This document shows positions 5,350-58,185 of a stretch of DNA of 64,000 bases, piece by piece; within the stretch, counting starts at the first letter, position 1, and every line of letters begins with the position of its first letter. The notes below the pieces were generated by a model. It searched no databases and was not told where the DNA came from. It worked only from the letters and a program-made list of their open reading frames with translations. The position numbers and the translations under genes are program-made. The DNA is taken from NCBI GenBank assembly GCA_963754875.1, contig CAVWHO010000015.1, positions 96,001 through 160,000 of the forward strand, written 5' to 3'. This DNA is from Nitrospirota bacterium. GTDB lineage: Bacteria > Nitrospirota > UBA9217.

Positions 5350-6433
<1,084 letters not shown>

Positions 6434-6510
6434 GAACGCTATCTCCGGAAGGTAAAGAATATTTGTCGTGCAACGGCTAAAGCCACAGCGGGACTGTGGT
6501 TAATAAAGTT

Positions 6511-7041: not shown

Positions 7042-7045
7042 TCGT

Positions 7046-7936: not shown

Positions 7937-8066
7937 TCGGTGATGTGTTCTTGCGGATCAACGCTCCTTGTCGGATCGAGGATGAGATGAGAGGTGGAAA
8001 GCGGTCAGGCCTGCGGCCCGGGAAGAGAGATCAGGGGCGGCTCTTTCTTCCCGGACCAGTATTCTC

Positions 8067-8591: not shown

Positions 8592-8691
8592 AGCCTCCTT
8601 GTGATGCAGAAGTCAGAAGCCAGAATCCAGATCGGAAATCTTGGCTGGATTTCTCCTGACTACTGAATGCTGACTCCTGTCTCCTTTTTTT

Positions 8692-10359: not shown

Positions 10360-10382
10360 TTGGTCCTCCTTGTCCTGCGCCC

Positions 10383-12160: not shown

Positions 12161-12180
12161 TCCTGCGCCCTTCGTTTTCC

Positions 12181-13905
12181 TTAAAACTTTTCGAACTCCG
12201 CGTCCCGCGAATCTCCGTTACCCTTCATTTTATCATGCCCCAGGTTCAACGCCACGCCGCTCTGTTTGACTGTGGCGCCTGCGGCCTGGGTTTTCGGGAG
12301 CAAATGCGCGACCTGCACCTTGTGCAGGGGCGTGGCATGCTTTGTTGCCTGTGGAAGCGCGTGTCGGCCTGCTTCCCTGTCGTCAACCTTAAAAAAGGCA
12401 ATCGTGCTCTGGAGCTGTTCAGCCTGGGACGAGAGCTCCTCGGCAGTAGAGGACATTTCTTCTGCTGCGCCCGCGTTCTGCTGGATCACCTGGTTGAGCT
12501 GCTGGATCGCCGAATTGATCTGGTCCGCGCCCGTGGTCTGCTCCTTCGAGGCCGCGCTGATCTCCTGCACCAGTTCCGCGGTCTTCTGGATGTCCGGCAC
12601 CAGCTTGGCCAGCATCTGGCCCGCTTTTTCCGCCACTTCTACGCTCGATGCGGACAGATGGCTGATCTCTCCAGCCGCAGTCTGACTCCGTTCCGCAAGC
12701 TTCCGCACTTCCGAAGCCACCACGGCAAAACCCTTCCCGTGCTCGCCGGCGCGGGCCGCTTCGATCGCCGCATTCAAAGCCAGCAGGTTCGTCTGGCGGG
12801 CGATCTCTTCAATGATAGAGATCTTCGATGCGATGTCCTTCATGGCGCCTACGGTCTCGGATACTGCCTTGCCGCTCTCCATGGCGTCAGCGGCGGATTT
12901 GAGTGCGATCTTTTCGGTCTGCGACGCATTATCCGCGTTCTGTTTGATTGTGGCGTTCATTTCCTCGACCGAAGATGAAGCTTCTTCTGCCGACGCCGCC
13001 TGCTCCGTGGTCCCCTGGGACATCTGCTCGGCACCCGAGGACAGCTGCTGGGACCCCGAGGCCACATTGTCCGATGCGCCCTTGACGTCCGCCACGACGG
13101 TCTTGAGCCGCTCGACCATGTTCTTCATGGATGTGAGCAGCTGGGCGGTTTCATCCTTGCCCTTTACGTCAATACGAATATTGAGGTCGCCCTCTGCCAT
13201 GCTGTTGGATACGGCCACAGCTTCTTTGAGCGGCACGGTTATGCTTCGTATTAACAGGAAGGAAGTCACCAGACTGAGCACTGTCCCGATCAGGATAAGA
13301 GTTATCGAGCTGAAAAAAACCGTATGGTACTTGTCGGAAGCGGTTTTCGCTATCGCTGCAAACGCCTCTTCCTCTTGTTTCTGCGTCGATTCGGCGATGG
13401 AGGCGGCGAGTTCCGTAGGCTCCCGGTCCATGCCCTTTACCATAGTATCCACGGTATGAACGCCTTTGAGGTCGCCCGAACCATAGTGGCTCAGAGCGTC
13501 GTGGTATTTGGAACCCATCTCCAGATGCTTTTTCAGAAATTCATCGACTTTTGACGAGTCCAGCTTCAACGACGTGAGCAAGCTCCTTAGCTTCTGCCCC
13601 TTGCTCTGAACCGCGGACTCTTCTTTCTTAAAGTTTTCCTGGTATTTTACAAAATCTTCCGGTTTGTAACCTCTTAATAAAGTATCTTTCCATTCCTGGA
13701 CCTGTTTCTTGAAATTGAGCACAACGTCATCGGCATCGATGACTGCCTGTGTGTATATTTTGGCAGTCCCCATGCTTGCAACTAGCTGGCTGTTCGTGCT
13801 CGAAATGCCGTGCAGCAGATATACGCCTATGCCGATAAGCAGGAACGACATGAACCCTACCAGCACATTCAGCTTCACACCTATCTTTTTCCCCTCTAGC
13901 ATCAT
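12181..13905 (-). CDS. methyl-accepting chemotaxis protein (helical-bundle sensor, HAMP, pentapeptide EFEKF)
   Basis: Two TMs; [15 protein letters not shown] sensor motif; conserved signalling domain. Confidence 0.95.
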
Positions 13906-13980
13906 AAGTCCTCCTTGTCATGTTGCGTTTCATGTCGCTTCCGGATTTAATTGGTTGTCAAGCTCACTTTCGCCGCTGTT

Positions 13981-16152: not shown

Positions 16153-16501
16153 TGTGCGCTCCTGAAATATCGACCCAAAGACAGCTCTTGTCCAAATCCA
16201 GTTTGCAGCCCGCGTGGCGGGAGAAGCCGGACGCGTCCACGGCTTCCTTCAGCGCCTGGGGCGCGGTCCCCTCAAGCTCGACATGCTTCTTCTGCTGCGT
16301 GGCGCTCCGATGGAGGGAGCAGAACAGTTGCAGCAGGGACAGGTCTACCTTCTGAACGTGGTCAAAGACGATAGCAATGTCATCAGTCTCTCCCACGGCC
16401 TTGAGGAAAGCCTTCTTCAGCTCTTCGGATTGCGGCAGGGTGAGCTCGCCGTTCAGCACAACTCGCAATTTTTCACCTGTTTTTTCGAGCGTTACTCCCA
16501 T
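16145..16501 (-). CDS. STAS-domain protein
   Basis: LNGELTL...VQKVDLSLLQL STAS_2 pattern; located between the two cheA genes. Confidence 0.85.
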   Translation of the reverse strand: MGVTLEKTGEKLRVVLNGELTLPQSEELKKAFLKAVGETDDIAIVFDHVQKVDLSLLQLFCSLHRSATQQKKHVELEGTAPQALKEAVDASGFSRHAGCKLDLDKSCLWVDISGAHSG

Positions 16502-16641
16502 AAGTCCTCCGCTTCTTGAAAACTAAATCACTTAACGCAATCGGGTATCTTTGAAATGGCATACGAAAGAGATGCGGCAAAAAACAGTTTTAGGTCCTCA
16601 TTTCAGCCCTCACTGTTGTCTAACTGATCACCTCTGACCGT

Positions 16642-18801
16642 TCACACCGAAGCACCTGCGGTCGCATTGCGCAGGGAACCCGTTCGCTGTTCTGCTTCCC
16701 GGATGAGCTTTGGCACATCAAGGATCAATGCCAGCGTGCCGTCGCCGAGGATTGTCGCCCCTGATACGCCGGGCACGTTTTGATAAAACTTTCCCAGGTT
16801 CTTTATCACGGTCTGATGGCCGCCGATGACGTGGTCAACGACGAACCCGACCCTGCGGTCGTTGACCCGGGTGATCACGATCTGTTCGATCTTCGGCTGG
16901 TCGCTCTCGATCAGGAACTGCTCGCGGAGCCGCAGGTAGGGAACGATCCGGCCCCGTACATTGGCGATATTCCTGTTGTTGGCGACGTTCCGCTCGATAC
17001 TGCTCAGTTCAACGCACTCCTCGACCAGGGAAAGAGGAAAGACGAAGTGTTCGCCGCCGATCCGCGTGAGGAACCCGTCGATGATCGCCAGGGTCAGCGG
17101 CAGCTTGAGGGTCATCGTCGTGCCGGCGCCCTTGGTGCTGCTGATATCGATCGACCCCCGGAGGGCATCGATGGTCTTCCGAACAACGTCCATTCCCACG
17201 CCGCGGCCGGACACGCTGGTGATTTTTTTCGCCGTTGAAAAGCCCGGTGCGAAGAGCAGCGCAAAAAGCTCCTGCTCCGACAGGTCTGCATCGGCCGCGA
17301 TGAGCCCTTTTTCCACGCCCTTGGCGCGGATGACTTGCGGATCGAGGCCGGCCCCGTCATCGGCGATCCGGATCAGGACGTTCGCGCCGGAATGGACGGC
17401 GGAAAGACGGATGGTCCCCTGCCTCGGCTTGCCCGCTGCCTCGCGGTCCCTGGGCGGCTCGATGCCGTGGTCGATGCTGTTCCTGATGAGATGCACGAGG
17501 GGGTCGCCGAGCCGTTCAATGACGGTCTTGTCCAACTCGGCCTCTGCTCCCTCGGTCGTCAGCTCGATCTCTTTGCCGAGTTCGGCCGAAAGGTCCCGCA
17601 CGAGGCGCTTGAAGCGGCTGAAGGTGGTCCCGATCGGCAGCATGCGGATGCTCATGGTGTTGTCGCGGAGCCCCGCGGTCAGGCGTTCGACTTCTTCGGC
17701 AATAGACCGGAAGTCCGTTTGCCCGTTCTGTTTGTTTGCCGCCGCCTGGCTGAACCGCGCCTGCACCGTGACGAGTTCTCCCACGAGATCGACGAGCCGG
17801 TCCAGTTTTTCCGCGGGCACCCTGACGCTGAGGGTGGACTCCTCTTTCTGGCGTTTTTCCCGCACGTCTTTGATATGCTCCTGTTCCGCAAGCGCAGAGA
17901 CCACTTTTTCAGGCTCGATCGCGCCCATCCCGACAAGGATCTGGCCGAACCTTTTTTGCGAGGAAAGCGCCTCTTTGACCGCTTCAGGGGTCACATCGCC
18001 GCGTTCGAGCAGGATATCTCCGAGCTTTTTATTATACGTTTGATAATCCGTCTGACCGGCCGCATCGATGACGTCGGCGACCTCGATCTTCAAATCGCAG
18101 CCATCGGCGACGAAGATGAACACGTCTTTGACGGAGTTCAGCCCGCGGTCGGTGGTCAGGATGATGTTCCACTCCGTATAGCAGGATTCAGCGTCGATTT
18201 CGTTCAGGTAGGGAATCGGATCGGTCAGGGCCACGATGGTACACTGCCCGAGACTGCGGAGTTCCTCCAGCAAGAGCACGGGGTTGCCGCCGGTCTTGAA
18301 CATGTTTTTATGCGGACGGAAAGTGATGCGGTAGGTGGCGATCACATCGCTTGCGGCCGTTTGAGGCCGGGAAGCGGCAATTTCCTTGTCGGACGCCGGG
18401 GATTTGGGTAGTCCTTGCCCGGGGGTGAGGCCCTTCAGGTCTGCGATAATGGATGCGTTCTTCTGCTCCACATCAGGGCCGGTGCCGTCGGGCGAATCGA
18501 GCATCGACTTGATCTGGTCCCGGGCGGACAGGGTCAGGTTGATGAGGTCTTTGGAGACCTTCATCTTGTCGTTTCGTACCAGGTCGAAGACGGTCTCGAT
18601 CTCATGGGTAAACTTCGAGACTTTGTCGAACCCGAACATGGCGCCTGAACCCTTGATGGTATGCATGGCGCGGAAGACCCGGCCGATCAGGTCCTTGTTG
18701 CCAGGAGTCTCTTCCAGTTCGAGCAGGGCCGTTTCGAGCTCGGCCAGCAGTTCACCCGCCTCTTCCAGGAAGACCTGACTGTGCTTATCTTTCGCTCCCA
18801 C
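16642..18801 (-). CDS. cheA: chemotaxis histidine kinase CheA (first copy) with MshEN-like repeats
   Basis: FRAMHTIKGSGAMFG, RNSIDHG, GRGVGMDVV, CheW domain. Confidence 0.95.
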   Translation of the reverse strand: MGAKDKHSQVFLEEAGELLAELETALLELEETPGNKDLIGRVFRAMHTIKGSGAMFGFDKVSKFTHEIETVFDLVRNDKMKVSKDLINLTLSARDQIKSMLDSPDGTGPDVEQKNASIIADLKGLTPGQGLPKSPASDKEIAASRPQTAASDVIATYRITFRPHKNMFKTGGNPVLLLEELRSLGQCTIVALTDPIPYLNEIDAESCYTEWNIILTTDRGLNSVKDVFIFVADGCDLKIEVADVIDAAGQTDYQTYNKKLGDILLERGDVTPEAVKEALSSQKRFGQILVGMGAIEPEKVVSALAEQEHIKDVREKRQKEESTLSVRVPAEKLDRLVDLVGELVTVQARFSQAAANKQNGQTDFRSIAEEVERLTAGLRDNTMSIRMLPIGTTFSRFKRLVRDLSAELGKEIELTTEGAEAELDKTVIERLGDPLVHLIRNSIDHGIEPPRDREAAGKPRQGTIRLSAVHSGANVLIRIADDGAGLDPQVIRAKGVEKGLIAADADLSEQELFALLFAPGFSTAKKITSVSGRGVGMDVVRKTIDALRGSIDISSTKGAGTTMTLKLPLTLAIIDGFLTRIGGEHFVFPLSLVEECVELSSIERNVANNRNIANVRGRIVPYLRLREQFLIESDQPKIEQIVITRVNDRRVGFVVDHVIGGHQTVIKNLGKFYQNVPGVSGATILGDGTLALILDVPKLIREAEQRTGSLRNATAGASV

Positions 18802-18941
18802 GCGCTCTCCCGCTGGCTGTTGCTAAACTTTTTAAAAAAATTTCCCGCGGCGGGAAACTCAGGGAAAAGTTGTTTTCCATCGTTTTCCCTCCGCGCTCTT
18901 TGCGTCCTCTGCGGTAATAACGAATTTTTATCTCTTACTGT

Positions 18942-19307
18942 TCACTTAACGAACTTTTTTACCACATCCAGCAATTGCTCAGGCGAAAAGGGCTTCACGA
19001 TCCACCCGCTCGCCCCTGCCTGTTTGCCTTCCTGCTTTTTGCTTTCTTGTGATTCCGTCGTCAGCATGACGATCGGCGCGAATTTGTAGTCGGGCATGCT
19101 CCTGAGCTTTTTGATGAGCTCGATGCCGTCCATTTCCGGCATGTTGAGGTCGGTAATGACCATGTCGACCTTGGCTCCACCCAGTTTCCCAAGGGCGTCC
19201 TTGCCGTTTTCCGCAACGAGAACGTCATGCCCCGCGTCCTTGATCGTAAAGGATACCAGCTGTCTCATGGATGCGGAATCGTCTACTACGAGAAAAGTCT
19301 TTGGCAT
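18942..19307 (-). CDS. cheY: CheY
   Basis: VDDS, TDLNMP, MLTTES, GASGWIVKPF. Confidence 0.93.
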   Translation of the reverse strand: MPKTFLVVDDSASMRQLVSFTIKDAGHDVLVAENGKDALGKLGGAKVDMVITDLNMPEMDGIELIKKLRSMPDYKFAPIVMLTTESQESKKQEGKQAGASGWIVKPFSPEQLLDVVKKFVK

Positions 19308-19326
19308 GCGGTCTCTCCCGAATGTG

Positions 19327-20493
19327 CTATTTGCCCTGTGCGGCGAAAAGCGTATTTTTCATGACGGTCCGTTCTGATTCCATGGTGTACATTTTTTCGA
19401 GCCATTCGGTGCGGCGCTCGATCGTCTGCGCGTGCATCCGCTCGTTCACGGCCTGGAGGCGCTGCCGCAACTCTTCCGACTCCTGCTTGAACTTCAGGAG
19501 CGGATCAATGACGTGCTCGATGCGCTGCCTCGTGATGTCCTGGAACTGCATGGACATGATGATGCCGCTGATGTCCCTGGCAAGCGCCTCATTTTCCGTC
19601 TTCAATTCATCGAACCGGTCCTTCGCGCCGGCCATGACGCCATCGAGTGTCGTCAATGCATCCTCTACGGTTTTTCCGGCGTCGCTTGATTTTTTCGCAT
19701 TTTCGCTCACGCTTTTATCCGCCTTTTGATGGATCGTATCCATGTCCGTTCCTATTTTGTCGATCAGCTTTTTGATCTTGTCCGCGGCCGTGTTCGACCG
19801 GTCGGACAGCTTGCGGACTTCGTCGGCCACGACACTGAACCCCTTGCCGGACTCTCCGGCCCGGGCGGCCTCGATGGCGGCGTTCAACGCCAGGAGGTTT
19901 GTCTGCTGCGCGATATATTCGATCTCTTCGACGATCTTCTTGATGCTCTTCGCGTCGTTCGTGATGACTGCCATATCTTTCTGGGTCTCGATCCCGGCGC
20001 CGGCGAACGTGTCCAGGCTCGCCATGATTTCCGCGAAGGTCTTCCGGCTCACCTGGATGAGCGATGCTTCTTCTCCGGTGGCGCCGAAGCCCGTCAGCGC
20101 ATTGGCCGCATTTTCGGCCTGCTTCCGTGCGCGGCCCACGATGCGCATGAATTTATCGCCCATTTCGAGCGTGGCCTGTTCAGTCTGCTGGGTGACTTCC
20201 TTCAACTGCGTAGTCAGTACCGGCGTGATCTGGATGTTGGCATCCAGATGGGCGGTCAATGGGCCGATCACGGCATGTAACGCATCGACCTGTTGTTCCC
20301 GTTCCGCGGCCCAGGTGCATTCCATTGATGCCCGATAGGCTTTCAGAGCCGCGAGCGCCGCATACAGGGCGACTCCATAACAGAGCGCTGCCGCGGTAAT
20401 ACGGATCGCCGCCTGACCGATGAAAGACGGCACAGCAGCAAGCAACAGTGCGCCGGCTGTTTTTGTTTTTTCATTCCATTTCCATGCGTGCAT
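19327..20493 (-). CDS. short MCP-like protein lacking a periplasmic sensor, with C-terminal QFQDITRQ motif
   Basis: N-terminal hydrophobic hairpin; [40 protein letters not shown]. Confidence 0.88.
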
Positions 20494-25849: not shown

Positions 25850-26438
25850 TTACCCCTGGGCATGGTGCGCGCTCAGGTCCTTGATCAGGTTCTTCAACTG
25901 CTCGTCCAGGTCGGTCACCACGTCCTCCACCGGCCCCATCACGACGGTGCCGAACGGGGAAACCGAGGGATCGACATCAAATACGATGTCGGGATGGATC
26001 CGCGTCAGATCGGGCTTGTGCTTCATGAAAAACTCGTAGAGCGCGGGGTTCACCTTGATCGTGATCTGCCCCGTCCGCTCGAGCTTCAGGAGCCCCTCTT
26101 TCGTCATCTTGACGATCTCCGTCGGCTGGACGGTCAGTTCCTTCACGACGATCTTCCGTGCGATGCTGACGGAAAGTTCGACGCATTGCGTCTCCATTTC
26201 CTTCAGCGATCCGCTGTCGCAGCGTCGTGACGTCGGCCAGCAGGGCGTCCAGCTTGTCGATCAGCACCTTCGCTTTCTTTTCGCCCATGTCGAAGCCGGC
26301 TTTTTCGCCCGTCGCATACCCTTTCTCGTAGGCTTCCCGCTCGATGCGGTCCGCGCCGTGGCCCACGATAAAATCATCCTTGAGCGCCGGCATATCGAAA
26401 CGGGCGAGTGCCGCGTCCTGTCTGATCCGTTTAGACAA
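25850..26438 (-). CDS. fliH: FliH (frameshift ~26200)
   Basis: EAYEKGYATGEKAGFDMG GxxxG repeats; IARKIV, KVNP. Confidence 0.85.
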
Positions 26439-27415
26439 CAACTTCTTCACCGCCTCTCCCGGCAAGGACGATCTTGCCGTCCGTCTCCAGTTTCCTGGCG
26501 ACCTTCACGATGTTCTGCTGCGCCTTTTCCACGTCGGACAGCTTGACCGGTCCCCGCGTCTGCATGTCTTCCTTCAGGATCTGCGCCGCGCGCTGAGACA
26601 TATTCTTGAAGATCTTCTCTTTGAGCGCCTCCGACGCCGTCTTGAGCGCCAGTGCCAGTTCATCGGTCCCCGTCTCCTTCAGGATCATCTGAATGCCGCG
26701 GTCGTCCACCTTGACCAGGTCGTCGAACACGAACATGAGTTTTCGGATCGAGTCGGCAAGTATGTTGTTCTGCTCGTCGATCCTGCCCAGGACCGATTGC
26801 TCCGTGGACCGGTCGCACTGGTTCAGGATCTCGGCGATGGCCTTGGTGCCGCCCATGCGCAGGCCTTTGCTCTTGCCCATTTCGAGCTGCCCTTTCAGCA
26901 CTTCTTTGAGCTCTTCGATGGCGTGCTCCGGGATCCGGTCGGTCGAAGCGATCCGCATCGCGACGTCGGACTTGATGGTGTCCGGCAGGGCGGAGAGCAC
27001 TTCCGCGGCCTGCTGGGGTTCGAGCAGACAGATGATGAGCGCGATGGTCTGGGGATGTTCTGATATGAGGAAGTTGACAAGGGTCTTGGCATCGACCCAG
27101 CGCAGGGATTCGAGCGGCCCCTCTTTGGACGCCAGTTCCATGATCTTCAGCGCGCCGTCCTCGCCCAGTCCTTTCGAAAGGACTTTTTTAACGAATTCGG
27201 CGCCGCCCACGCGGACGTCGCCGCGGTTGACACTTTCCGCCACCTCTTTCAGAACATTATCGATCGTGTCCCGTCGAAAGGGTCTTGAGCCGCGTCATGT
27301 ACATCGTGATCCTGCCGATGTCCTTGACATCGAGACCTTTCAGGACTTCGGCTGCCGCATCTTCGCCGAGGGAGCTCAAAAATACCGCGGCTTTTTCATA
27401 ACCACTCAAAGGCAT
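26431..27415 (-). CDS. fliG: motor switch FliG (frameshift ~27270)
   Basis: GYEKAAVFL, EHPQTIA, MFVFDDL, KNMSQRAA, DVEKAQ. Confidence 0.92.
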
Positions 27416-27483
27416 GCCCCACTCCTTACCCGGCTCTCTTTGTCGCTGTACTCTGAACCCTGTATACTTTGAACTCTGCACTA

Positions 27484-29039
27484 TTATTTCTCTTCCAGCC
27501 ATCCCTTGATGAGGTTCGTCGCATCTTTCGGATTCTTCTTGGCCCAATCGGTCAGCTGCTCGCGGGACGACCGGTCCGGGGCCGGGATCGCCCTCTGCAT
27601 GTCGCCGCCTGCAGCCTGCGGCAGGCTGAGCTGCTGTTGCGGCAGGGAGAGCGGCGATGGTTCGGTCAGCGTCTTCATGAGCGGTTTTATGACGAACAAG
27701 AAACAGCAGCACGACCCCGATGAGCGGAACAACATACTTCGAAGCGGTCATCACTGTCGGCATGACCTGTGATGGCGCCTGCGCCTCTTCCATCTCTTCC
27801 TGCGGAACGACCTCAAAGGGCAGATTCACGACCTTGACCTCGTCACCCCGGTCCGCGCTGAAGCCGACCGCCTTCTTTACCATGTCCTCGAACTGCCGCA
27901 CTTCGTCTTCGGTGCGGGGAGCGTACTTTTTCTCCGTTGAGCCCTGTACAGCTGCATAGGTCCCGTCCACGAGCACGACCGCGGAAAGTTTTTTAATCTC
28001 ACCGGTCGGACTGACCACGTGGCTTACGGTCTTGGTGAGCTCATAGTTGATGGTCTCGCTCTTTTTTTCCGATACCGCCGGTGTGCCCGGCAGGGCCGCT
28101 GCGGTCTGCTGCCGCCCCGGAAGGTTCGAGGCAACGCCGGGAACGCCGCCGCTCGTCCCGCCGGTGGATTTTTCCGTGCTCCGCTGCTCGCTCCTCGCCA
28201 CCTGGCTGTCGGGATCGTATTTTTCTTCTGTTTTTTCCGTCTTCGTAAAATCGAAGCTTGCGGCCACCCTCACTTTTACCTTGCCCTTACCCACGACCGG
28301 TTCGAGCATGCTGATGACCTTGGCCTCTACATCGCGTTCGTAGTTCCGCTGATACTCGAACTGGCCGCCGGATTCGGCAAAGTTTTCGTCGACAACGGAC
28401 GTGAGCATATCGCCGTTGTTGTTCACCACGGTCACGTCCTTCGGCGTCAAGCCCTTCGATGCTGCTCGATACGAGATGGACGATGCCCTGGACCTGGGAT
28501 TGCGAGAGCCTTCTGCCCGGCCGGAGCTTCAGGAGCACCGAAGCTTTCGGTTTATCGTCCTTCTGCACAAAGAGCGATTTTTCCGGGACCGCCAGATGGA
28601 CCCGGCACTGCTCGACTTCTGCCAGGGACCGGATCGTCCGCTGGAGTTCTCCCTCGAGGGCCCGGCGATAGTTCAGCTTCTGCACAAAGTCGGTCATCGT
28701 GAAGCTTGTCTTGTCGAAAAGCTCATACCCGACCCCGCCGCCCTGGGGCAGACCCTGGCTCGCCAGCTGAAGCCTGACTTCATACACCTTATCGGCCGGC
28801 ACCATGATCCCGCCTGCTGACGCGGTATAGGGGATCTTCTGCTCGTTCAGCTTCTGGATGATGGCGCCGGCATCTTCCTCGCTCAAATTCGCGAAGAGGA
28901 GCTGCTGGTCCGCCTTCTGCGACCACGTCATCAGAAGGATGCCTGCGGCGCTCACGAGCGCAAGCACGATGAGCAGCGCAAAAATTTTTTTCATCGGTAA
29001 CGTTTCGTATCTGTTCGCCAACGTCTGCCATAGCTTCAC
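27484..29039 (-). CDS. fliF: MS-ring FliF (frameshifts ~28450 and ~27700)
   Basis: GLPQGGGVGYELFD, ALEGEL, GVPGVASN, GFSADRGD motifs. Confidence 0.92.
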
Positions 29040-46726: not shown

Positions 46727-48577
46727 ATGAAACCAACCGAGGAACTTTCTACAGCGATACGGGACCTTGCGGCTCCCGATCCGTCGGCGCGGCGCATTGC
46801 CGCGGAAGCGCTGGCAACAGCGGATGAGCGGGCCATCTACCCGCTCATCCGGTCTCTCCGCGACGAAAACCCCGGCGTGCAGGACGCGGCCATGCGCTCC
46901 CTCATCGCGATCGGCGGCGAAGTGACGGCATACATGACGCTGCCGCTCCTGCGGGAAAGCCCTTTTCTCCGGAATACCGCGCGCATCATTCTGAGCCAGA
47001 TCGGCATACCCGCGGTCCCGCTCCTGCGCTCTCTGCTCGCCGACAAGGATGACGACATCCGGACCTTCGCGGTGGACCTTATTTCGAACATCGGCTCCTG
47101 CGATTTTCCGGAAGAGCTTGCGCGTTTGCTCGAGACGGATCCGAACCAGAATGTGAGGGCTTCCGCTGCCAAGGCGCTGGGAATGCTCGGATACCGCGGC
47201 GGCCTGCAGGCGCTGATTAACGCGCTCAAGGACAGCGAATGGGTCTGTTTTTCCGCCCTCGAATCCCTCGCCCACCTCAACGACGACGCGTGCGTGGAGC
47301 CGGTCCTTGCCCTGCTGCAGGGTCCCTCGGAAACGGTGCGGTATGCGGCGATCGAAACGCTCGGCAGGATGGGCACCAACCGGGCAGTCGATTCTTTGAT
47401 TGGCCTCCTCCCGAAGTCAAACGATATGGAAAAATCCGCAATCGTGAAGAGCCTTGTCCAGATCGGCATCACTCCGGCCATGGCCCAGGTCGCCGATCTG
47501 CTGGTCGACCTGTACGTAAAGGGAGAATGGGACGACCGTCTCCTCGCGCTCACGGGGCTTGCCGATCTGCGACACGAGCAGGCACTACCGGTCATTCTGG
47601 ACAGCGCCGGCTCTCTCGACCCCTCGGCCCCGGAAAGCGAAGATCGGCTCTTCGCGGTGAAGCAGGCGCTCCTCCGGTTCGGTTGTGCTCCCCCGTTGAT
47701 CGCAGCCCTTGCCGACCCGGCGGTACGGTTCCGTGCAAAGACAATCGCCATTGAAGTCATCGCCGAACTCCGGTGCCCGGAGGCGGTTCCACCGTTGCTC
47801 CGGATTATGGACGGGGACCTGCGCGAGGTGCGTCGGTCCGCCGTTCTTGCGCTCGCGGAAATGCCGGGAGATGAGGCGCTCCAGGCGCTTAGGAAATGCA
47901 TCGAGGACCGCGACGGTCACGTCCGCAACGTGGCCCTTTCCGCTCTCGGCAGGATCGGCGACCAGGCGTCATTCGACCGTCTCTTCCGCCACCTCGATCT
48001 CGAAAATTACCGGGACGTGCTCGAAGAAACGGTCAAAGCTCTCCTGATGATCGATGCAAACCGGCTCTTCTCCTCTCTGGACGCCCTTTCGCCGAGGGTA
48101 AAGGAAATACTCGGACGGAACGCCCGGAATGTCGACGTCCTCCTTACCCTGTCCCGCGACCGGGAACCCGGCATCCGTCTCGCCGCGCTTACGGGTCTCG
48201 GCCGGGTCCAGGACGAGCGTGCCCGCAAGCGGCTGTCCGAGGCGCTTGCCGAAGGGGACCCGGAAATGAGGAAGGCCGCCGTTCTGGCGCTGGGCGCGCT
48301 GCACTGCTCCGTCGACGATATGAAGCAGGCGCTCGCAGACAGCGATATGTGGGTAAGGCTCTATGTGGTCAAGGCGCTGGGGGACTCGCAGGACCCGGCT
48401 GCGGCCGCGGCCGTCCTTCCGTTGCTCACAGACAAGGATGTCCCCGTCGTTCTCTCGGCGATCGATGCTTTGGTCCAGCTGGGCAGTGCAAATCCGGCCG
48501 CGCTGCGTGCTCTCCAAGACCATGGCGATGAAACAGTACGGCAACGCGCAGCGGGCGCAATGGAGCGTTTATGCTGA
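46727..48577 (+). CDS. HEAT-repeat protein
   Basis: Repeated L.D...VR..A..ALG units; overlaps cheR. Confidence 0.9.
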   Translation: MKPTEELSTAIRDLAAPDPSARRIAAEALATADERAIYPLIRSLRDENPGVQDAAMRSLIAIGGEVTAYMTLPLLRESPFLRNTARIILSQIGIPAVPLLRSLLADKDDDIRTFAVDLISNIGSCDFPEELARLLETDPNQNVRASAAKALGMLGYRGGLQALINALKDSEWVCFSALESLAHLNDDACVEPVLALLQGPSETVRYAAIETLGRMGTNRAVDSLIGLLPKSNDMEKSAIVKSLVQIGITPAMAQVADLLVDLYVKGEWDDRLLALTGLADLRHEQALPVILDSAGSLDPSAPESEDRLFAVKQALLRFGCAPPLIAALADPAVRFRAKTIAIEVIAELRCPEAVPPLLRIMDGDLREVRRSAVLALAEMPGDEALQALRKCIEDRDGHVRNVALSALGRIGDQASFDRLFRHLDLENYRDVLEETVKALLMIDANRLFSSLDALSPRVKEILGRNARNVDVLLTLSRDREPGIRLAALTGLGRVQDERARKRLSEALAEGDPEMRKAAVLALGALHCSVDDMKQALADSDMWVRLYVVKALGDSQDPAAAAAVLPLLTDKDVPVVLSAIDALVQLGSANPAALRALQDHGDETVRQRAAGAMERLC

Positions 48578-49389
48578 ACCCGGTGTTGCCGGACATGGTC
48601 TTCAAACAGATCAGGGATTTCATCTACGAGAAATGCGGAATCTACATTTCCGATGCAAAAAAGTATCTCGTCGAAAAAAAACTCGTCACGCGTCTTCAGC
48701 AGAAAAACCTGAACACCTTCGAGGACTATCTCTCTCTGCTGAAATACAGCAGCAACGGCGACGAGCTCTCGAAGCTCTACGACGCCATAACCACGAACGA
48801 GACCTATTTTTTTCGGGAGCCGCAGCAGTTGGCGGTCTGCGTCGACACGGTAATCCCGCAGGTGATGGAACAGAAAAAGTCCAGGGACATCAGGATCTGG
48901 TCTGCAGCCTGCTCCACCGGAGAAGAAGCATATACGCTGGTCATGATGCTCCTGGAAAAAAAGAGCTGTACCCGTATCGACGTGGTCGGTTCGGACATCA
49001 GCAACGAAGTGCTGGAGTCGGCAAAAAAAGCCGTATACGGTTCCTACTCCATGAGAAACGTGGCGGAGCCGTTCTTGAAAAAATATTTCCGCAGCAACGG
49101 CTGGACCCACGAGCTTGATGCGTCGGTCAAAAGCATGGTCAGGTTCACGAACATCAACCTTATCGATCCCGGCAAAATGCGGACCCTTCAGGCCATGGAC
49201 GTCATCTTCTGCCGGAACGTGCTCATCTATTTCGATGACAAGGCAAAGCAAAGAGCGGTCTCACTGCTCTATGACAGCCTGCGGCCCGGCGGATTCCTCT
49301 TTATCGGCTCGTCGGAAAGCCTCCACAGCGTCACGAGGGCGTTTAAACCGGCCATATTCGGCAAGGTCGTTGCCTATCAGAAGGTGTGA
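48571..49389 (+). CDS. cheR: CheR
   Basis: TTNETYFFRE, WSAACSTGEE, FCRNVLIYF. Confidence 0.95.
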   Translation: MLNPVLPDMVFKQIRDFIYEKCGIYISDAKKYLVEKKLVTRLQQKNLNTFEDYLSLLKYSSNGDELSKLYDAITTNETYFFREPQQLAVCVDTVIPQVMEQKKSRDIRIWSAACSTGEEAYTLVMMLLEKKSCTRIDVVGSDISNEVLESAKKAVYGSYSMRNVAEPFLKKYFRSNGWTHELDASVKSMVRFTNINLIDPGKMRTLQAMDVIFCRNVLIYFDDKAKQRAVSLLYDSLRPGGFLFIGSSESLHSVTRAFKPAIFGKVVAYQKV

Positions 49390-49390
49390 T

Positions 49391-49783
49391 ATGAAAATAC
49401 TGATCGTAGACGATGATTCAACGACAAGAAAACTACTCGGGCTGTTCCTGAGGTCCAAGGGATACGAGGTGGCTTATGCGGAAAACGGCATCGACGGCCT
49501 CGAAAAACTCGGCCAAGAAAACCCCAATATGATCATCAGCGATCTCAACATGCCCTATATGGACGGCATCGAGTTTGTAAAAAGTGTGCGGTCCGATCCG
49601 GCCCGTGCGGAGCTCCCCATTTTGATGGTGACGACCGAGGGGGACCCCGAGGAACGGGAACGCGCGCTCTCGGTCGGCGTCAACGGCTACCTGGTCAAGC
49701 CGGTGACCGCCGAAGTGGTGATCCAGCATATCCGGCATATATTGAAGAACATGTTCGCGCAAGGAGGAGGTTCCCATGCCTGA
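49391..49783 (+). CDS. single-domain response regulator
   Basis: VDDD, SDLNMP, MVTT, YLVKP. Confidence 0.9.
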
Positions 49784-50168
49784 TTATAAGATGAAGATCC
49801 TCGTGGTCGATGATTTTTCGACCATGCGTCGGATCGTTAAAAACGTCCTGAAGCAGCTCGGCTTCGAGAACATCGACGAGGCAGAGGATGGCGCGCAGGC
49901 GCTCGCAAAATTAAAAAGCGGCAGCTATGGTTTTGTCGTGACCGACTGGAACATGCCGAACATGGACGGTCTCGACTTTTTCAAGGCCGCGCGTGCGGAG
50001 CCGAATCTCAAGGAGCTCCCCTTCCTGATGGTGACCGCGGAAGCGGAAAAGGAAAAGGTCATCATGGCGATCCAGGCAGGCGTCAACAACTACATCGTCA
50101 AACCCTTTACCGCGGAAGTGTTCAAGGAGAAAATGGACCGGATCTTCGAGAAGCTGGCGAAAAAGTAG
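49776..50168 (+). CDS. cheY: CheY (E. coli-like, motor-controlling type)
   Basis: [35 protein letters not shown]. Confidence 0.95.
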
Positions 50169-50225: not shown

Positions 50226-52001
50226 GTGCCTGATGAAATGGAAGAAATAATCGCCGAATTTGTTACCGAATCGGAAGAGACCCTCGACAAGATCGACCCC
50301 CTCTTCATCGAGCTTGAGGCGAATGGTGAAGACAAGGAAATCCTGAACCGGCTGTTCCGGAGTGTCCACACGATCAAGGGCGCCGCCGGCTTCCTGGGTT
50401 TCCAGTCCATGGTGGAAGTATCCCACAGCGCCGAAAACATCATGAAGAAGCTTCGGGACGGCGACATCACGGTCTCTCGGCAGCTCATGGACATCGTCTT
50501 GAAGAGCGTCGATATGCTGAGGCTCCTGCTCAGGCACGTCAAGGACAAGGACGGCGTTCGGGAAAATACGACGCCTCTGGTGCAGGAGCTTAACCAGGCG
50601 CTCGAAGCGGCCCTTGCGGCTGCCGGCACTGCCCCCTCTGCTGAGCCAGCTTCTGCTGTGCCTGCAGCTCCTCCCGCATCGACGGCGCCGACAGTGGTCC
50701 CCATGGAGCAGAAGAAAGCTGCTGCTGCGATGCCTGCCCCGGTCCTCCATGAGGCTGCGATTGCGGAGAGCGGCCAGCAGAGCGAGACGGCGGCGAGGCC
50801 GGAGTCGCTTCAGACGCTCCGTGTCGAAGTGAACAAGATTGACAAGGTCATGGACCTGACCGGAGAGGTCGTGCTCGTCCGGAACAGGCTCCTGAATATT
50901 GTGAGCCGGCTCGAACACCAGTACAGCGACGACCATGACGTGCAAAGCCTGCTCGAGGCCGTTTCTTTCCTCGATCTCATCACCTCCGACATGCAGCTCG
51001 GCGTCATGAAGATGCGCATGCAGCCCATCGCAAAAGTCTTCAGCAAATTTCCGCGCCTCGTGCGCGACCTTGCCGGCCCGCTGGGAAAATACGTCGACCT
51101 GAAGGTGGCCGGAGAGGACACCGAGGTCGACAAATCAGTGATCGAACAGATCGGCGATCCGATGGTGCACATCATCCGGAATGCCATCGACCACGGGCTC
51201 GAACTGCCGAAGGACCGCATGGCAAAGGGAAAATCGGAGAAAGGCACGATTTCCATCACAGCATCACAACGGGGGAACCAGATCGTCATCGAAGTGTCCG
51301 ACGACGGCCGGGGTATCGACCTCGATAAAGTAAAAGCAAAAGCGCTCCAGAAAAAACTCATCACCGAGGACGAAGCCGTCCGCATGACGGACGAGGCTGC
51401 CACCAACCTCATCTTCCTTCCCGGCTTCTCCACCGCCGAGGTGGCCACCGAGCTCTCGGGCAGGGGCGTCGGCATGGACGTGGTCAAGACGAACATCTCG
51501 AAGCTAAACGGCACCGTCGAGATCGCGACGCACAAAGATCGAGGGAGCGTGTTCACGATTCATATTCCCCTGACCCTTGCCATCATCCAGACCCTCATGG
51601 TGCGTTCCGGCAAAGCGCGCTACGCGATCCCCCTTGCGCCCGTCGAAGAAACGCTTACCGTGTCCGAGGGCGACGTGTCCGATATGGGAGGGACCGAAGC
51701 GCTCATCATCAGGGGCAAAGTATATCCCCTCTTTACCCTCTCGAGTGCGATCGGTGGCGTTCGGGACGCCAAGACCGGCTGCAAGTACGCCGTCGTGGTG
51801 GCCATAGGGGACAAGCGGTTCTGCATCGGTGTCGATGAACTCCTGGGCCAGGAAGAAGTGGTGATCAAGACCGTCTCGGGCATCAATACGGGGTCGTCGT
51901 TCATCCTCGGCGCGACCATAACAGGCGACGGGAAAGTGGTCTTCATTCTCGATCTTGCTGCCATTTCAAAGAACGCGTACAACCTTGCGCAGGTTTCATG
52001 A
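50226..52001 (+). CDS. cheA: CheA (third copy), apparently lacking the P2 domain
   Basis: Hpt FRSVHTIKG, Ala/Pro linker, RNAIDHG, GRGVGMDVV, CheW domain. Confidence 0.95.
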   Translation: MPDEMEEIIAEFVTESEETLDKIDPLFIELEANGEDKEILNRLFRSVHTIKGAAGFLGFQSMVEVSHSAENIMKKLRDGDITVSRQLMDIVLKSVDMLRLLLRHVKDKDGVRENTTPLVQELNQALEAALAAAGTAPSAEPASAVPAAPPASTAPTVVPMEQKKAAAAMPAPVLHEAAIAESGQQSETAARPESLQTLRVEVNKIDKVMDLTGEVVLVRNRLLNIVSRLEHQYSDDHDVQSLLEAVSFLDLITSDMQLGVMKMRMQPIAKVFSKFPRLVRDLAGPLGKYVDLKVAGEDTEVDKSVIEQIGDPMVHIIRNAIDHGLELPKDRMAKGKSEKGTISITASQRGNQIVIEVSDDGRGIDLDKVKAKALQKKLITEDEAVRMTDEAATNLIFLPGFSTAEVATELSGRGVGMDVVKTNISKLNGTVEIATHKDRGSVFTIHIPLTLAIIQTLMVRSGKARYAIPLAPVEETLTVSEGDVSDMGGTEALIIRGKVYPLFTLSSAIGGVRDAKTGCKYAVVVAIGDKRFCIGVDELLGQEEVVIKTVSGINTGSSFILGATITGDGKVVFILDLAAISKNAYNLAQVS

Positions 52002-53209
52002 AGGAGGGTCCCGTGCAACAGTACATCGGCTTTAAACTGCACACCGGGGAGTTCGGAATCCCGATCACGAAGGTCCGTGAGATCATCAATCTGCCGGAGA
52101 TCACCAGGATACCGCAGTCGCCCCCCTACCTGAACGGCATTACCAATCTCCGCGGGAGCGTCATTCCCGTGGTGGACCTGAAAAAACTGATCAAAGTTCC
52201 GGCAACGGAAGCCGGCGGCACCAAGGTCATCGTTATCGCAAGCGGCAGGATAACGTTCGGCCTCCTGATAGACGGTATTACGGGTGTCATCAGCATCGAT
52301 GAAGGAATGATCGAATCTCCGGAGAACCTCCCCCAGGGACATGTGGACCAGGTCGAAGGCGTCGCAAAGCTCGACGGCAGGCTCATCGTCCTTCTGGACA
52401 TAAAAAAATTGATCCCCCTCGATGACATGAGTCTCCTCGAAGACATGGCAACGGAGGTAAGCGCCGAGGACGAGAACGGCAGTGTCCAGGTGACCCATGC
52501 AATACAGACCATGGCGGGCGAGGTCCGCGTTACGGAGCTTCGAAACGCAAAAACATTTTTTGAGAAGACGAAAGGCATCAGTCCCGACGATCCCCGCAAG
52601 GAAATCCTTGAGGATATCGTGAGCTTCATGACCGCGGTCTCGGAGCATGATTATGAGAAGGCCGACACGGCAATCCAGCAGATCGTACAGCTGGGCCAGG
52701 GAGACCTGTTCAAGGAGGTCGGCAAAATAACGCGAAAACTGCATGACGCAATTAAGGGCTTTAAAGAAGCTGTGGACCCGCGTTTAAAGGGCCTGACCCA
52801 GGCGGAGATCCCGAATGCCGTGGACAAGCTCCAGTTCGTGATCGACAAAACCGAGGAAGCCGCCAACAGGACCATGAGCGTCGTAGAGAAATATATACTG
52901 TCCATGGACGATCTCGCCACCCACCTCCGGAAAGTCCAGGGGCCTCCGGAAACGGTAGCTTTTTTGAAGGAGTTCAAGAACGGCCTTGAAGACGATCTGA
53001 CGGAAATCCTGACGACCCAGTCCTTCCAGGACCTGACCGGCCAGACGATCAAGAAGGTCATCACGCTCGTTCATGATATTGAAAACGAACTCGTTCGTCT
53101 TGTCTCGTCCTTCGGCGTTAAAATCGAGGGGGCAAAAGAACCGGTAGCTGCTGTAGAAAAGGTTTCGCAAAAGGACGTTGATGAGCTGTTGAAGGATCTC
53201 GGCTTTTAG
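51998..53209 (+). CDS. CheW-CheZ fusion protein
   Basis: N-terminal CheW (GITNLRGSVIPVVDL); C-terminal CheZ (EVGKITRKLHD, TEEAANRT, QSFQDLTGQTIKKV, SQKDVDELLKDLGF) in one ORF. Confidence 0.92.
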   Translation: MKEGPVQQYIGFKLHTGEFGIPITKVREIINLPEITRIPQSPPYLNGITNLRGSVIPVVDLKKLIKVPATEAGGTKVIVIASGRITFGLLIDGITGVISIDEGMIESPENLPQGHVDQVEGVAKLDGRLIVLLDIKKLIPLDDMSLLEDMATEVSAEDENGSVQVTHAIQTMAGEVRVTELRNAKTFFEKTKGISPDDPRKEILEDIVSFMTAVSEHDYEKADTAIQQIVQLGQGDLFKEVGKITRKLHDAIKGFKEAVDPRLKGLTQAEIPNAVDKLQFVIDKTEEAANRTMSVVEKYILSMDDLATHLRKVQGPPETVAFLKEFKNGLEDDLTEILTTQSFQDLTGQTIKKVITLVHDIENELVRLVSSFGVKIEGAKEPVAAVEKVSQKDVDELLKDLGF

Positions 53210-53273
53210 GGAATGCACAGGGGGCGCGACGCAGTCGATGACCCGCCCATCACTTTTTTATCGGGAGGAGAGT

Positions 53274-53681
53274 ATGGCACTCATAGACTGGAATGACAAT
53301 CTCAGCGTCAATATCAAGGAAGTCGACTCGGAACACAAAAAACTCATCGGCATGATCAATGAACTGCACTCAGCTATGGGCGCGGGAAAAGGCAAAGACG
53401 CTTTAGGCAAAGTCCTCGCAGGGCTGGTGGAATATACGAAAACCCATTTTTCCTATGAAGAGAACCTTATGCAGAAGCACAACTACCCCGGCTACGTGAG
53501 CCACAGGGGCTTGCACGATGCTCTCGTCAAGAAGGTCCTCGGTTTCCAAAGTAATTTTCAAGAGGGTAAAAGTCTTGTCACCGTAGAAGTCATGAACTTT
53601 TTGAAGGACTGGCTCACGAACCATATCCAGAACACCGACAGGAAGTACGGACCGTTCTTAAACGGCAAAGGGGTTGTATAG
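53274..53681 (+). CDS. bacteriohemerythrin
   Basis: WNDNLSV..DSEH, HFSYEE, HRGLH, WLTNHIQNTD di-iron ligands. Confidence 0.93.
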   Translation: MALIDWNDNLSVNIKEVDSEHKKLIGMINELHSAMGAGKGKDALGKVLAGLVEYTKTHFSYEENLMQKHNYPGYVSHRGLHDALVKKVLGFQSNFQEGKSLVTVEVMNFLKDWLTNHIQNTDRKYGPFLNGKGVV

Positions 53682-53770
53682 AAAAGGGAAGTTTTTTGCC
53701 CGGCTCAGGAAAAGGGCCGGCCGCGGCGTTGCCCTGATACGCTCACCGCAGAGAAAGTACGGAAACCACC

Positions 53771-54829
53771 ATGACCGTAACAGTGCTCATCGTAGACGAT
53801 TCGGCGTTCATGCGGAACGCGCTTACCACCATGCTCGGGTCTGATCCCGAGATCAAGGTGGTCGGCACGGCGCGGGACGGCGTGGAGGCGGTCGAGAAGA
53901 CGGCGCTGCTCAGGCCGGACATCGTCACCATGGACGTGGAAATGCCGCGCATGGACGGCATCGAGGCGCTCCGGCTCATCATGGACAAGACGCCGGTGCC
54001 CGTGATCATGGTGAGTTCGCTCACCACCGAGGGGGCCCATGTCACCCTCGATGCGCTGGACCACGGGGCCGTGGATTTCATACCCAAAAACCTTTCCGAG
54101 CTTTCGATCAACATCGTGAAGATCAAGGCAATGCTGATTGACAAGGTAAAGCAGATAGCAAAGAGCGGCGTGGCAAGAAGGACGAGGCGAAGCGCGGCGA
54201 CAGCCGCGCGTCCTGTCGACAAGCCCAGGATGTCGTCGATACTTGCTACCGGCGCGAGGCGGGTCAGCATAGTGGCCATCGGCACGTCCACGGGCGGACC
54301 GCGCGCGATCCAGGAGATCATCCCCCGCCTGCCCAAGGACTTTCCGGTTCCCATCGTGATCGCGCAGCACATGCCGCCGAACTTCACCAAACCCTTCGCC
54401 GAGCGCTTGAACCAGCTCTCCCAGATCGCGGTGAAGGAAGCCGAAGAAGGCGAGACGCTCAAGCCTGGCGTCGCGCTTGTGGCGCCGGGTCGGGGCCATA
54501 TGCGCACGTCGCGTCTCCGCGGAATCGAGACGGTGGTGAACATTTCGGAAAACCGCGAGGAATTCATTTACCGGCCTTCCGTCGATTATCTCATGCAGTC
54601 CGTTGCCGAGTGCTTCCCCGGCAGGGCGCTCGGGGTGATCCTGACCGGCATGGGCAGCGACGGCGTCAAAGGTCTTACGGCGCTCAAACAGACCGGCGGC
54701 AGGATCTTTGCTCAGAACGAAGAAACCTGCGTAGTCTACGGCATGCCGCGTGCCGTGGTGGATGCAGGCATTGCGGACAAGGTGCTGGGTATAGAAGAGA
54801 TGGCGGGAGAGATCATCAACGCGGTTTGA
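53771..54829 (+). CDS. cheB: CheB
   Basis: REC domain plus GTSTGG, QHMP, TGMGSDG. Confidence 0.96.
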   Translation: MTVTVLIVDDSAFMRNALTTMLGSDPEIKVVGTARDGVEAVEKTALLRPDIVTMDVEMPRMDGIEALRLIMDKTPVPVIMVSSLTTEGAHVTLDALDHGAVDFIPKNLSELSINIVKIKAMLIDKVKQIAKSGVARRTRRSAATAARPVDKPRMSSILATGARRVSIVAIGTSTGGPRAIQEIIPRLPKDFPVPIVIAQHMPPNFTKPFAERLNQLSQIAVKEAEEGETLKPGVALVAPGRGHMRTSRLRGIETVVNISENREEFIYRPSVDYLMQSVAECFPGRALGVILTGMGSDGVKGLTALKQTGGRIFAQNEETCVVYGMPRAVVDAGIADKVLGIEEMAGEIINAV

Positions 54830-57699: not shown

Positions 57700-58185
57700 A
57701 TGATCATGCAGACAACCGCGCATACGGAGATGCTCCAGCTTGTCACGTTCAAGCTGGACGGGCAGAAATACGCCGTCGATATCTTGAAAGTACAGGAAAT
57801 CAACAATATGAAGGAAATTACTTCCATACCCAATGCGCCGGCGTACCTGGAGGGAGCCATCAACCTCCGGGGCAAGGTGATCCCGGTCCTCAATCTCCGG
57901 AAGAAATTCGGATTTGAGGAAAACGCCAGCAGCGAGCTTCGCAAGATCGTCATCATGGATGTCCGGGGGGTCATCATGGGCCTGGTCGTTGATGCGGTAT
58001 CGGATGTCTTGAGGATAACCCGTGACGTGGTCGAGCCGCCGCCCCCGGTTTCTTCGAACGTCAGCTCCGAATTCATCGCCGGCATCGCCAAGCTTCCCGA
58101 AGGACTCGTCATCTTGCTGGATATGGACCGGCTCCTCGACGCCGAGGAACACAAGACCGTATTTGGTGAAGCACCCGTCTCGTAA
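57700..58185 (+). CDS. cheW: CheW
   Basis: [20 protein letters not shown]. Confidence 0.95.

What the first reader, a model, noticed from the sequence alone, without database searches (positions are those of the whole stretch)
51998..53209. CheW-CheZ fusion: a phosphatase carrying its own array-anchoring domain
Seen: one uninterrupted ORF, in a region free of frameshifts, joins a full CheW domain to a full CheZ. The CheZ keeps its catalytic D-x3-Q (QDLTGQ) and the C-terminal CheY-binding peptide (DVDELLKDLGF). Known: E. coli recruits CheZ to arrays through CheA-short and H. pylori through ChePep, and CheZ is mainly proteobacterial. Inference: this is a third, covalent route for placing the CheY phosphatase in the CheA/CheW baseplate. 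I cannot confirm from here whether it has been described.
Basis: partly seen in the sequence, partly recalled or inferred. Interest (0 to 1): 0.85.

Follow-up and report, generated by a model that had tools for sequence, protein, structure and literature searches.

The report
CheW-CheZ fusion: array-docked chemotaxis phosphatase
One real gene, shared by many related bacteria, joins the adaptor domain of the chemical-sensing array (CheW) to the enzyme that switches off the swimming signal (CheZ), which likely fixes the off-switch beside the on-switch; the layout has been listed in print but we found no study of it.

Summary
Confirmed. Window 51998-53209 is one open frame: CheW domain (residues 8-139), linker, helical hairpin, CheZ (236-403). 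It is not an assembly artefact: 120 of 120 listed homologs carry both domains, and contigs from two other runs cross the junction without gaps. CheZ keeps its catalytic pair (D345/Q349, 52 of 52 aligned members) and C-terminal peptide. CheW keeps the Glu38/Arg62/Gly57 equivalents (28 of 28). It is the only CheZ/CheC/CheX found in this genome and lacks the aromatic hairpin tip that binds CheA-short in E. coli. In 51 genomes of the phylum (relatives are labelled Nitrospirota), 29 are fused, 9 have a decayed CheW half and 13 are unfused. Most likely a CheY-P phosphatase docked in the receptor array as an accessory CheW; docking and activity are inferred, not shown. This scan has noted the same fusion before in at least a dozen other genomes. 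New variant of a known kind, apparently unstudied; interest 0.4.

The parts
51998..53209 (+). cheW-cheZ fusion gene (403 aa from ATG 51998; more likely 398 aa from GTG 52013)
   Evidence: homologs; junction bridged in other runs
52001..52007 (+). Shine-Dalgarno-like AAGGAGG, 5 nt before GTG 52013, overlapping the cheA stop
   Evidence: sequence; homolog starts
52019..52414 (+). CheW domain, residues 8-139; E28, G47, R52 = E. coli CheW E38, G57, R62
   Evidence: Pfam; alignment to 2HO9; conservation; model and fold search
52421..52591 (+). Linker, residues 142-198: variable, with a low-confidence beta-hairpin (162-183) and a short helix; replaced or deleted in several relatives
   Evidence: no Atlas hit
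52592..52699 (+). Two-helix hairpin, residues 199-234, homologous to the N-terminal extension of stand-alone gammaproteobacterial CheZ; weak likeness to the HAMP domain that other phylum members carry here
   Evidence: hhalign 99.3%; 81.7%; no Pfam HAMP hit in 23 of 23 members
52700..53113 (+). CheZ core, residues 235-372 (helix 1 and helical hairpin; tip shortened, no Trp)
53030..53044 (+). Catalytic D-x3-Q motif, D345-Q349
   Evidence: E. coli D143/Q147; 52 of 52 rows
53165..53206 (+). C-terminal amphipathic peptide (CheY-binding in E. coli CheZ), residues 390-403
   Evidence: Q391 and L398 in 52 of 52, F403 in 50 of 52; role from the title of Blat and Eisenbach 1996 in a reference list
50226..52001 (+). 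cheA (Hpt, dimerisation, ATPase, P5; no P2 domain), directly upstream
49776..50168 (+). cheY, E. coli-like; the likely substrate
   Evidence: NCBIfam PRK10610 191 bits, cut-off 189
49394..49783 (+). second single-domain receiver, conserved in this gene order; possible second substrate or phosphate sink
46727..49389 (+). HEAT-repeat gene and cheR, conserved head of the operon
53274..54829 (+). bacteriohemerythrin (53274-53681) and cheB (53771-54829), downstream
57700..58185 (+). stand-alone cheW of the same cluster, between chemoreceptor genes
   Evidence: separate clade from the fused CheW

Best explanation
The protein joins a CheW domain to a CheZ domain with intact catalytic residues, and likely works as a CheY-P phosphatase that docks into the chemoreceptor array as an accessory CheW. 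Shown: one conserved polypeptide, both halves with their key residues, the only CheZ-family gene found in the genome, beside cheA and cheY of the flagellar operon, with a separate free CheW always present. [quoted passage not shown] This would do the job that CheA-short does in E. coli, and would flatten the CheY-P gradient between array and motors.
For: Catalysis: D345/Q349 match E. coli D143/Q147 and are in 52 of 52 rows. Docking surface: E38, G57 and R62 equivalents in 28 of 28 fused CheW domains, I33 27 of 28, V108 28 of 28; E38-R62 aligns the receptor and kinase sites (PMC3828127, passages). Fold: model CheW part pLDDT about 75-96, best matches are CheW chains (6s1k_C E 5e-15; 2qdl_B Z 20.6, rmsd 1.9, 143 aligned). 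Selection: in 5 of 5 pairs pN 0.11-0.21 against pS 0.55-0.73 for the CheW half, pN 0.08-0.14 for CheZ (uncorrected). Natural contrast: in family f10, where cheZ lies away from cheA, the CheW half has decayed (E38 lost in 8 of 8, R62 kept in 1 of 8), so an unused domain looks different from this one. The E. coli anchor is missing: hairpin segment 45-62 residues and no Trp in 49 of 49 fused rows, 66 residues with Trp in 54 of 54 gammaproteobacterial rows; the aromatic tip binds CheA-short (PMC7750401). No CheC or CheX found in G000, 90% complete; one CheZ. Precedent: Treponema CheW-CheR-like, a CheW with C-terminal cargo, binds CheA and sits in the rings (PMC7666581). Benefit of co-location: PMC1447658.
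Against: No binding, localisation or activity was measured. The fused CheW differs from free CheW at family-specific sites near the receptor face (E. coli position 107: Gly in 21 of 28 fused, acidic in 26 of 30 free; position 21: Gly 24 of 28 against Thr 25 of 30) and drifts a little faster, so its partners may differ. Unfused members of family f6 and one of f5 also lack the Trp tip, so that loss is not specific to the fusion. 13 of 51 sampled genomes do without the fusion. The genome has several other che clusters, so which array it joins rests on gene order. The model leaves the relative position of the domains open (pTM 0.42), and its match to 1KMI is not diagnostic (Z 8.2, rank 40).
Confidence: 0.7

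Rival explanations
1. Regulated phosphatase: the CheW domain docks the enzyme and also passes the array's signalling state through the linker and the HAMP-like hairpin to the CheZ bundle, so kinase and phosphatase are controlled reciprocally.
For: Family f8 has CheW-HAMP-CheZ (Pfam HAMP 17-21 bits, under the cut-off of 25) and f6 has HAMP-CheZ (31 bits, over it). The window's segment 199-258 aligns with those at 81.7%, E 1e-5. The E38-R62 bridge, kept in 28 of 28, matters for signalling rather than assembly (PMC3828127).
Against: The same hairpin is found in stand-alone gammaproteobacterial CheZ (99.3%), so it is not special to the fusion. No Pfam HAMP hit in 23 of 23 members. The linker is the least conserved part (32% mean identity), varies widely in length and is low-complexity in f5 and f13, which suits a tether better than a signal path.
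Confidence: 0.1
2. Mainly structural: the CheZ dimer cross-links two CheW positions and orders the array, as the CheR-like domain does in Treponema; phosphatase placement is secondary.
For: CheZ is a dimer (PMC1447658 abstract), so the fusion is bivalent. Loss of the CheR-like domain disorders Treponema arrays (PMC7666581).
Against: The Treponema cargo has lost catalytic residues; here they are invariant and no other CheY phosphatase was found. The two roles do not exclude each other.
Confidence: 0.1
3. The fused CheW is the main or only coupling protein, so every adaptor position carries a phosphatase; or the CheW half no longer enters arrays and only stabilises the protein or binds another partner.
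For: cheW-cheZ sits next to cheA, and many loci show no free cheW nearby. Family-specific changes on the CheW surface.
Against: 10 of 10 other genomes checked and G000 have a free CheW that scores higher on the Pfam model than the fused one. Truly relaxed CheW halves (f10) lose the signature residues that this one keeps.
Confidence: 0.08
4. Artefact or two products: an assembly error joins two genes, or slippage or an internal start gives separate CheW and CheZ.
For: The assembly has apparent frameshifts elsewhere. An A7 run lies at the end of the CheW domain (52402-52408); one relative (L047) is frameshifted there. GTG at residue 208 has GAGG upstream.
Against: Hundreds of intact homologs; gap-free contigs across the junction. 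The A7 run is shortened by a silent A>G at 52408 in 3 of the 4 runs laid and occurs at that place in only 6 of 47 other fused rows. L047 is a single genome one A short in a homopolymer.
Confidence: 0.02

Closest known systems
E. coli CheZ (PF04344, PDB 1KMI) recruited to receptor clusters by CheA-short
   Same: Helix 1, helical hairpin, D-x3-Q motif, C-terminal peptide; the inferred outcome, a phosphatase at the array.
   Different: Here the anchor is a covalent CheW domain; the aromatic hairpin tip is missing and the hairpin is about 21 residues shorter.
Stand-alone CheZ of Vibrio, Shewanella, Photobacterium and kin (fliA-cheY-cheZ-cheA-cheB)
   Same: Closest unfused relatives outside the phylum (31-40% identity); share the N-terminal two-helix hairpin.
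   Different: No CheW domain in 57 of 57 such loci; longer Trp-bearing tip.
Treponema denticola CheW-CheR-like (PMC7666581)
   Same: N-terminal CheW domain with C-terminal cargo, beside a classical CheW; shown there to bind CheA and join the rings.
   Different: Its cargo lacks key catalytic residues and is mostly monomeric; here the cargo keeps its catalytic pair and is expected to dimerise.
CheV (CheW-receiver), CheA-CheC/CheX fusions of Leptospirae, and the rare CheW-CheC/CheX/CheZ architectures listed by Vass et al. 2022
   Same: Signal-terminating module joined to a baseplate domain. The CheW-CheZ layout itself is named in one sentence.
   Different: CheV is a phosphate acceptor, not a CheZ; CheC/CheX are a different fold family; the preprint passage gives no taxon, sequence analysis or function for CheW-CheZ.
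H. pylori CheZ-ChePep; Azorhizobium CheZ
   Same: CheZ localised without CheA-short.
   Different: Both localise independently of CheA, so they are not array-docking routes.

Membership tests
CheZ phosphatases (PF04344) | Profile match above the curated cut-off | tested here: met
   121 bits against 30.7. NCBIfam's enteric equivalog is hit at 71 bits, under its cut-off of 257.
CheZ phosphatases (PF04344) | Catalytic D-x3-Q pair (E. coli D143/Q147) | tested here: met
   D345/Q349; 52 of 52 rows
CheZ phosphatases (PF04344) | C-terminal amphipathic CheY-binding peptide on a flexible linker | tested here: met
   Helix 391-400 after a low-confidence linker 373-388; Q391, L398 invariant
CheZ phosphatases (PF04344) | Long helical hairpin forming a dimeric four-helix bundle | tested here: inconclusive
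   Hairpin predicted (273-372); 1KMI matched at Z 8.2, rmsd 3.3, 108 aligned, rank 40 among generic coiled coils; dimer not modelled
CheZ phosphatases (PF04344) | Stimulates CheY-P dephosphorylation | not testable with these tools
   needs an assay
Enteric CheZ anchored by CheA-short | Aromatic residues at the apical hairpin tip | tested here: not met
   No Trp, segment 45 against 66 residues; E. coli alignment gap
CheW coupling proteins (PF01584) | Profile match and two-subdomain beta-barrel fold | tested here: met
   126 bits; closer to CheW chains than to CheA P5
CheW coupling proteins (PF01584) | Glu38-Arg62 salt bridge, Gly57, Gly63 | tested here: met
   E28, R52, G47, G53; 28, 28, 28 and 23 of 28 fused rows; features from PMC3828127
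CheW coupling proteins (PF01584) | Binds CheA-P5 and chemoreceptor tips in an array | not testable with these tools
   needs pull-down or tomography
HAMP domain (PF00672) | Two amphipathic helices joined by an extended connector, scoring on the HAMP profile | tested here: not met
   No hit in 23 of 23 window-type members; the connector position is helical in the model. Relatives in f6 do score over the cut-off; weak profile likeness.
CheV | C-terminal receiver domain | tested here: not met
   No receiver hit; CheV domains form their own clade

The most novel reading that the evidence does not exclude
A phosphatase wired into the array as a signalling subunit: the CheW domain senses the array's on/off state and passes it through a HAMP-derived segment to CheZ, giving reciprocal control of kinase and phosphatase. 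Relatives with a recognisable CheW-HAMP-CheZ layout (family f8) would be the clearest case.
Probability: 0.1. Interest if true: 0.8.

Novelty: new variant of a known kind. Interest (0 to 1): 0.4.

Why it matters
Why cells place the CheY phosphatase next to the kinase is argued mostly from E. coli and from simulation. One phylum here offers a natural series: intact fusion, fusion with a decayed CheW half, and unfused CheZ. A cultured species carries the intact fusion (Dissulfurispira thermophila, WP_203471643.1), and a single domain deletion separates placement from catalysis. It also predicts a 'three-component ring' array with a long dimeric enzyme under the baseplate, visible by tomography. 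A specialist would find it neat rather than surprising, since CheW domains are known to carry cargo and the layout is already listed. If the array also controlled the phosphatase's activity, that would be a new layer of chemotaxis logic.

Tried and rejected
Complex prediction of CheA-P5 with the fused CheW domain (alignments A7, A8): no answer, scores 0.19 and 0.15 under the mark of 0.32, controls not folded; not used either way. First structure model from 40 close sequences was poor (mean pLDDT 58) and was set aside for the second. ESM Atlas search of the linker 140-236: no usable hit. Sequencing runs: no RNA holder listed; only contigs, no raw reads. Promoter/terminator scan gave nothing on the + strand that bears on the gene. 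Sole-CheW idea rejected. Programmed slippage at the A7 run rejected for this gene. L047's split gene read as a one-base homopolymer loss, not a natural split. True HAMP domain in this protein not supported. A CheV/fusion complementarity was considered: some unfused loci carry cheV and others do not, and genomes with the fusion also hold CheW frames of CheV size; dropped. Base composition of the two halves is like the neighbours. Literature searches without a description of the fusion: 'CheW-CheZ' 0 papers; CheZ+CheW+Thermodesulfovibrio 0; 'CheZ domain'+'CheW domain' 0; two searches listed 3 and 6 papers, of which I read passages of 4; one search gave 0. Wuichet and Zhulin 2010 and Lertsethtakarn 2015 are not held.
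Full report
Observation. Window 51998-53209 is one open frame of 403 codons. Pfam finds CheW at residues 8-139 (126 bits) and CheZ from residue 236 (121 bits). The best solved relatives by sequence are E. coli CheW (E 1e-23) and E. coli CheZ 1KMI (E 8e-10). The likely start is GTG 52013, five bases behind AAGGAGG, where most homologs begin. The gene lies in a flagellar-chemotaxis cluster: flhB-flhA-flhF-flhG-fliA-HEAT-cheR-receiver-cheY-cheA-cheWZ-hemerythrin-cheB-mcp, then a free cheW at 57700. CheA has no P2 domain. CheY passes the NCBIfam cut-off for E. coli-type CheY.

Is it real? The assembly has apparent frameshifts elsewhere in the window (fliF/fliG, a glycoside hydrolase), so the question was fair. 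The protein search gave 832 hits among 7997 candidates; 120 of the 120 listed carry both domains at 59-91% identity, and so do 120 of 120 listed with a broader profile. The rest of each list was not shown, so I do not count it as fused. Named hits are almost all Nitrospirota. Contigs of two of four other runs cross the junction without gaps. A scan of species genomes stopped at 6 of 64 parts; of the 80 loci kept from 596, 21 are fused (19 labelled Nitrospirota, one Deltaproteobacteria, one unlabelled), one is split by a one-base loss in an A run, one is a CheZ without CheW, and 57 are stand-alone gammaproteobacterial CheZ.

Spread. 164 of 301 genomes of the window's phylum match CheZ, 157 over the cut-off. 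I fetched 51 of the 164, chosen to cover families, not at random. 29 have a clear fusion (13 family codes), 9 (all f10) have a CheW-like half that has decayed, and 13 are unfused (f6, f9, f17, f30, f31, f32 and one f5). The fusion occurs in three gene orders: after cheA, before cheA with HEAT-cheR, and fliA-cheY-cheWZ-cheA. In f10 the gene lies away from cheA; 2 of 8 N-terminal domains still pass the Pfam CheW cut-off, E38 is lost in 8 of 8 and R62 kept in 1 of 8. On a CheZ tree of 62 rows the fused state needs 5 changes and lies on both sides of the deepest split (60 rows without two long branches). On the CheW tree one clade of fused domains is not rejected (p-AU 0.79; 47 of 63 rows, 3 long-branch rows and 13 others left out for speed). 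One old fusion with several losses fits; several origins are not excluded, and the root is not known.

The CheZ half. D345 and Q349 align with E. coli D143 and Q147 (numbering read from that alignment) and are present in 52 of 52 rows; the C-terminal Q391 and L398 too. The D-x3-Q residues are needed for activity in Azorhizobium CheZ (PMC8563088, passages). The apical hairpin is short and lacks Trp in 49 of 49 fused rows, against 66 residues with Trp in 54 of 54 gammaproteobacterial rows (2 fused and 3 gammaproteobacterial rows did not fit the pattern; a few genomes appear twice). E. coli CheZ binds CheA-short through two aromatic residues in that loop (PMC7750401, passages). Residues 199-234 form two helices homologous to the N-terminal extension of gammaproteobacterial CheZ (99.3%). 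Families f6 and f8 carry a HAMP or HAMP-like domain at this place, to which the window's segment has a weak likeness (81.7%) but no Pfam hit. No second cheZ, cheC or cheX was found in G000, which is 90% complete.

The CheW half. The second model (mean pLDDT 75, pTM 0.42) gives a confident CheW fold and leaves the linker and domain orientation open. Its best structural matches are CheW chains, ahead of CheA P5. The residues named as most conserved in CheW, Glu38, Arg62, Gly57 and Gly63 (PMC3828127 and PMC4742279, passages), are kept in 28, 28, 28 and 23 of 28 fused rows. Non-silent differences are far below silent ones in both halves in 5 of 5 pairs. Against this: a few family-specific surface changes and slightly faster drift than the free CheW of the same loci. 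The fused domain is never the only CheW: 10 of 10 other genomes and G000 have a free one.

Mechanism. Shown: the layout, the conserved residues, the operon, the missing CheA-short site, the free CheW beside it. Inferred: the CheW domain fills some ring positions, CheZ dimerises beneath the baseplate, and CheY-P is hydrolysed near its source. In E. coli simulations, CheZ at the cluster flattens the CheY-P gradient (PMC1447658, passages). A CheW with C-terminal cargo does enter arrays in Treponema (PMC7666581, passages). I put this at 0.7. Rivals are a regulated phosphatase (0.1), a mainly structural cross-link (0.1), a main or a retired CheW (0.08) and an artefact or two products (0.02).

What is known. 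[quoted passage not shown] Its companion 10.1101/2022.05.07.491037 does not mention the fusion in the CheZ passages shown. CheA-CheC/CheX fusions are reported in Leptospirae (PMC10782961, passages). CheZ in Nitrospiria is noted in PMC12887009 (passages). PMC9321776 (passages) added nothing. H. pylori CheZ-ChePep is independent of CheA (the primary paper was seen only as a title). Searches returned no paper and 10, 11 and 50 only the above or unrelated ones; the library lacks most subscription journals, and Wuichet and Zhulin 2010 could not be read. Databases label the protein 'protein phosphatase CheZ' or list both domains. Earlier notes of this scan reached the same reading on other genomes; they are not independent support, but they pointed me to the printed sentence.

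Verdict. It works like E. coli CheZ plus CheA-short, built like Treponema CheW-CheR-like. It is a member of the CheZ and CheW domain families by every sequence feature tested, not of the CheA-short-anchored type, and not a CheV. New variant of a known kind, listed but apparently unstudied. Interest 0.4; the bold reading (array-controlled phosphatase) has probability 0.1 and would deserve 0.8.

Noticed in passing
window 26431-29039 (-): fliF is split over two overlapping frames, its C-terminal part runs into a FliG N-terminal match, and the rest of fliG is a separate frame: likely indel errors in the assembly, and an example of a false-looking fusion in this same window.
   Followed up: no
window 2374-3638 (-): Glycoside hydrolase family 1 gene split into two overlapping frames.
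   Followed up: no
window 5306-20493 (-): A second chemosensory cluster with two cheA genes in tandem around a STAS gene, three chemoreceptor genes, cheW, cheR, and an IS-type transposase (10939-11988) inside it.
   Followed up: no
window 53246: All four other runs carry one more A here; it lies before the hemerythrin gene and makes the longer start at 53238 doubtful.
   Followed up: partly
window 53274-53681: A bacteriohemerythrin gene sits between cheW-cheZ and cheB here and in close relatives L031, L032, L043; L033 has a chemoreceptor with a hemerythrin match. Possible oxygen input.
   Followed up: partly
window 46727-49783: HEAT-repeat gene, cheR and an extra single receiver are conserved as a block before cheY in most fused loci and in unfused f6.
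   Followed up: partly
L014:4939-5610, L030:1052-1720, L121:7108-8232, L122:6747-7895: HAMP-CheZ (f6, over the Pfam cut-off) and CheW-HAMP-like-CheZ (f8) proteins; CheZ helix 1 takes the place of the second HAMP helix.
   Followed up: partly
L015-L017, L036, L037, L126-L128, L130: Family f10: orphan cheZ with a decayed CheW-like N-terminal domain.
   Followed up: yes
L047:5884-7187: Fusion gene frameshifted in an A run at the end of the CheW domain (one A short); the upstream cheA is also split, which points to assembly errors.
   Followed up: yes
L001:10761-11240: A free CheW, 29% identical to the window's free CheW, that groups with the fused CheW clade on a long branch: perhaps a domain released from a fusion.
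   Followed up: no
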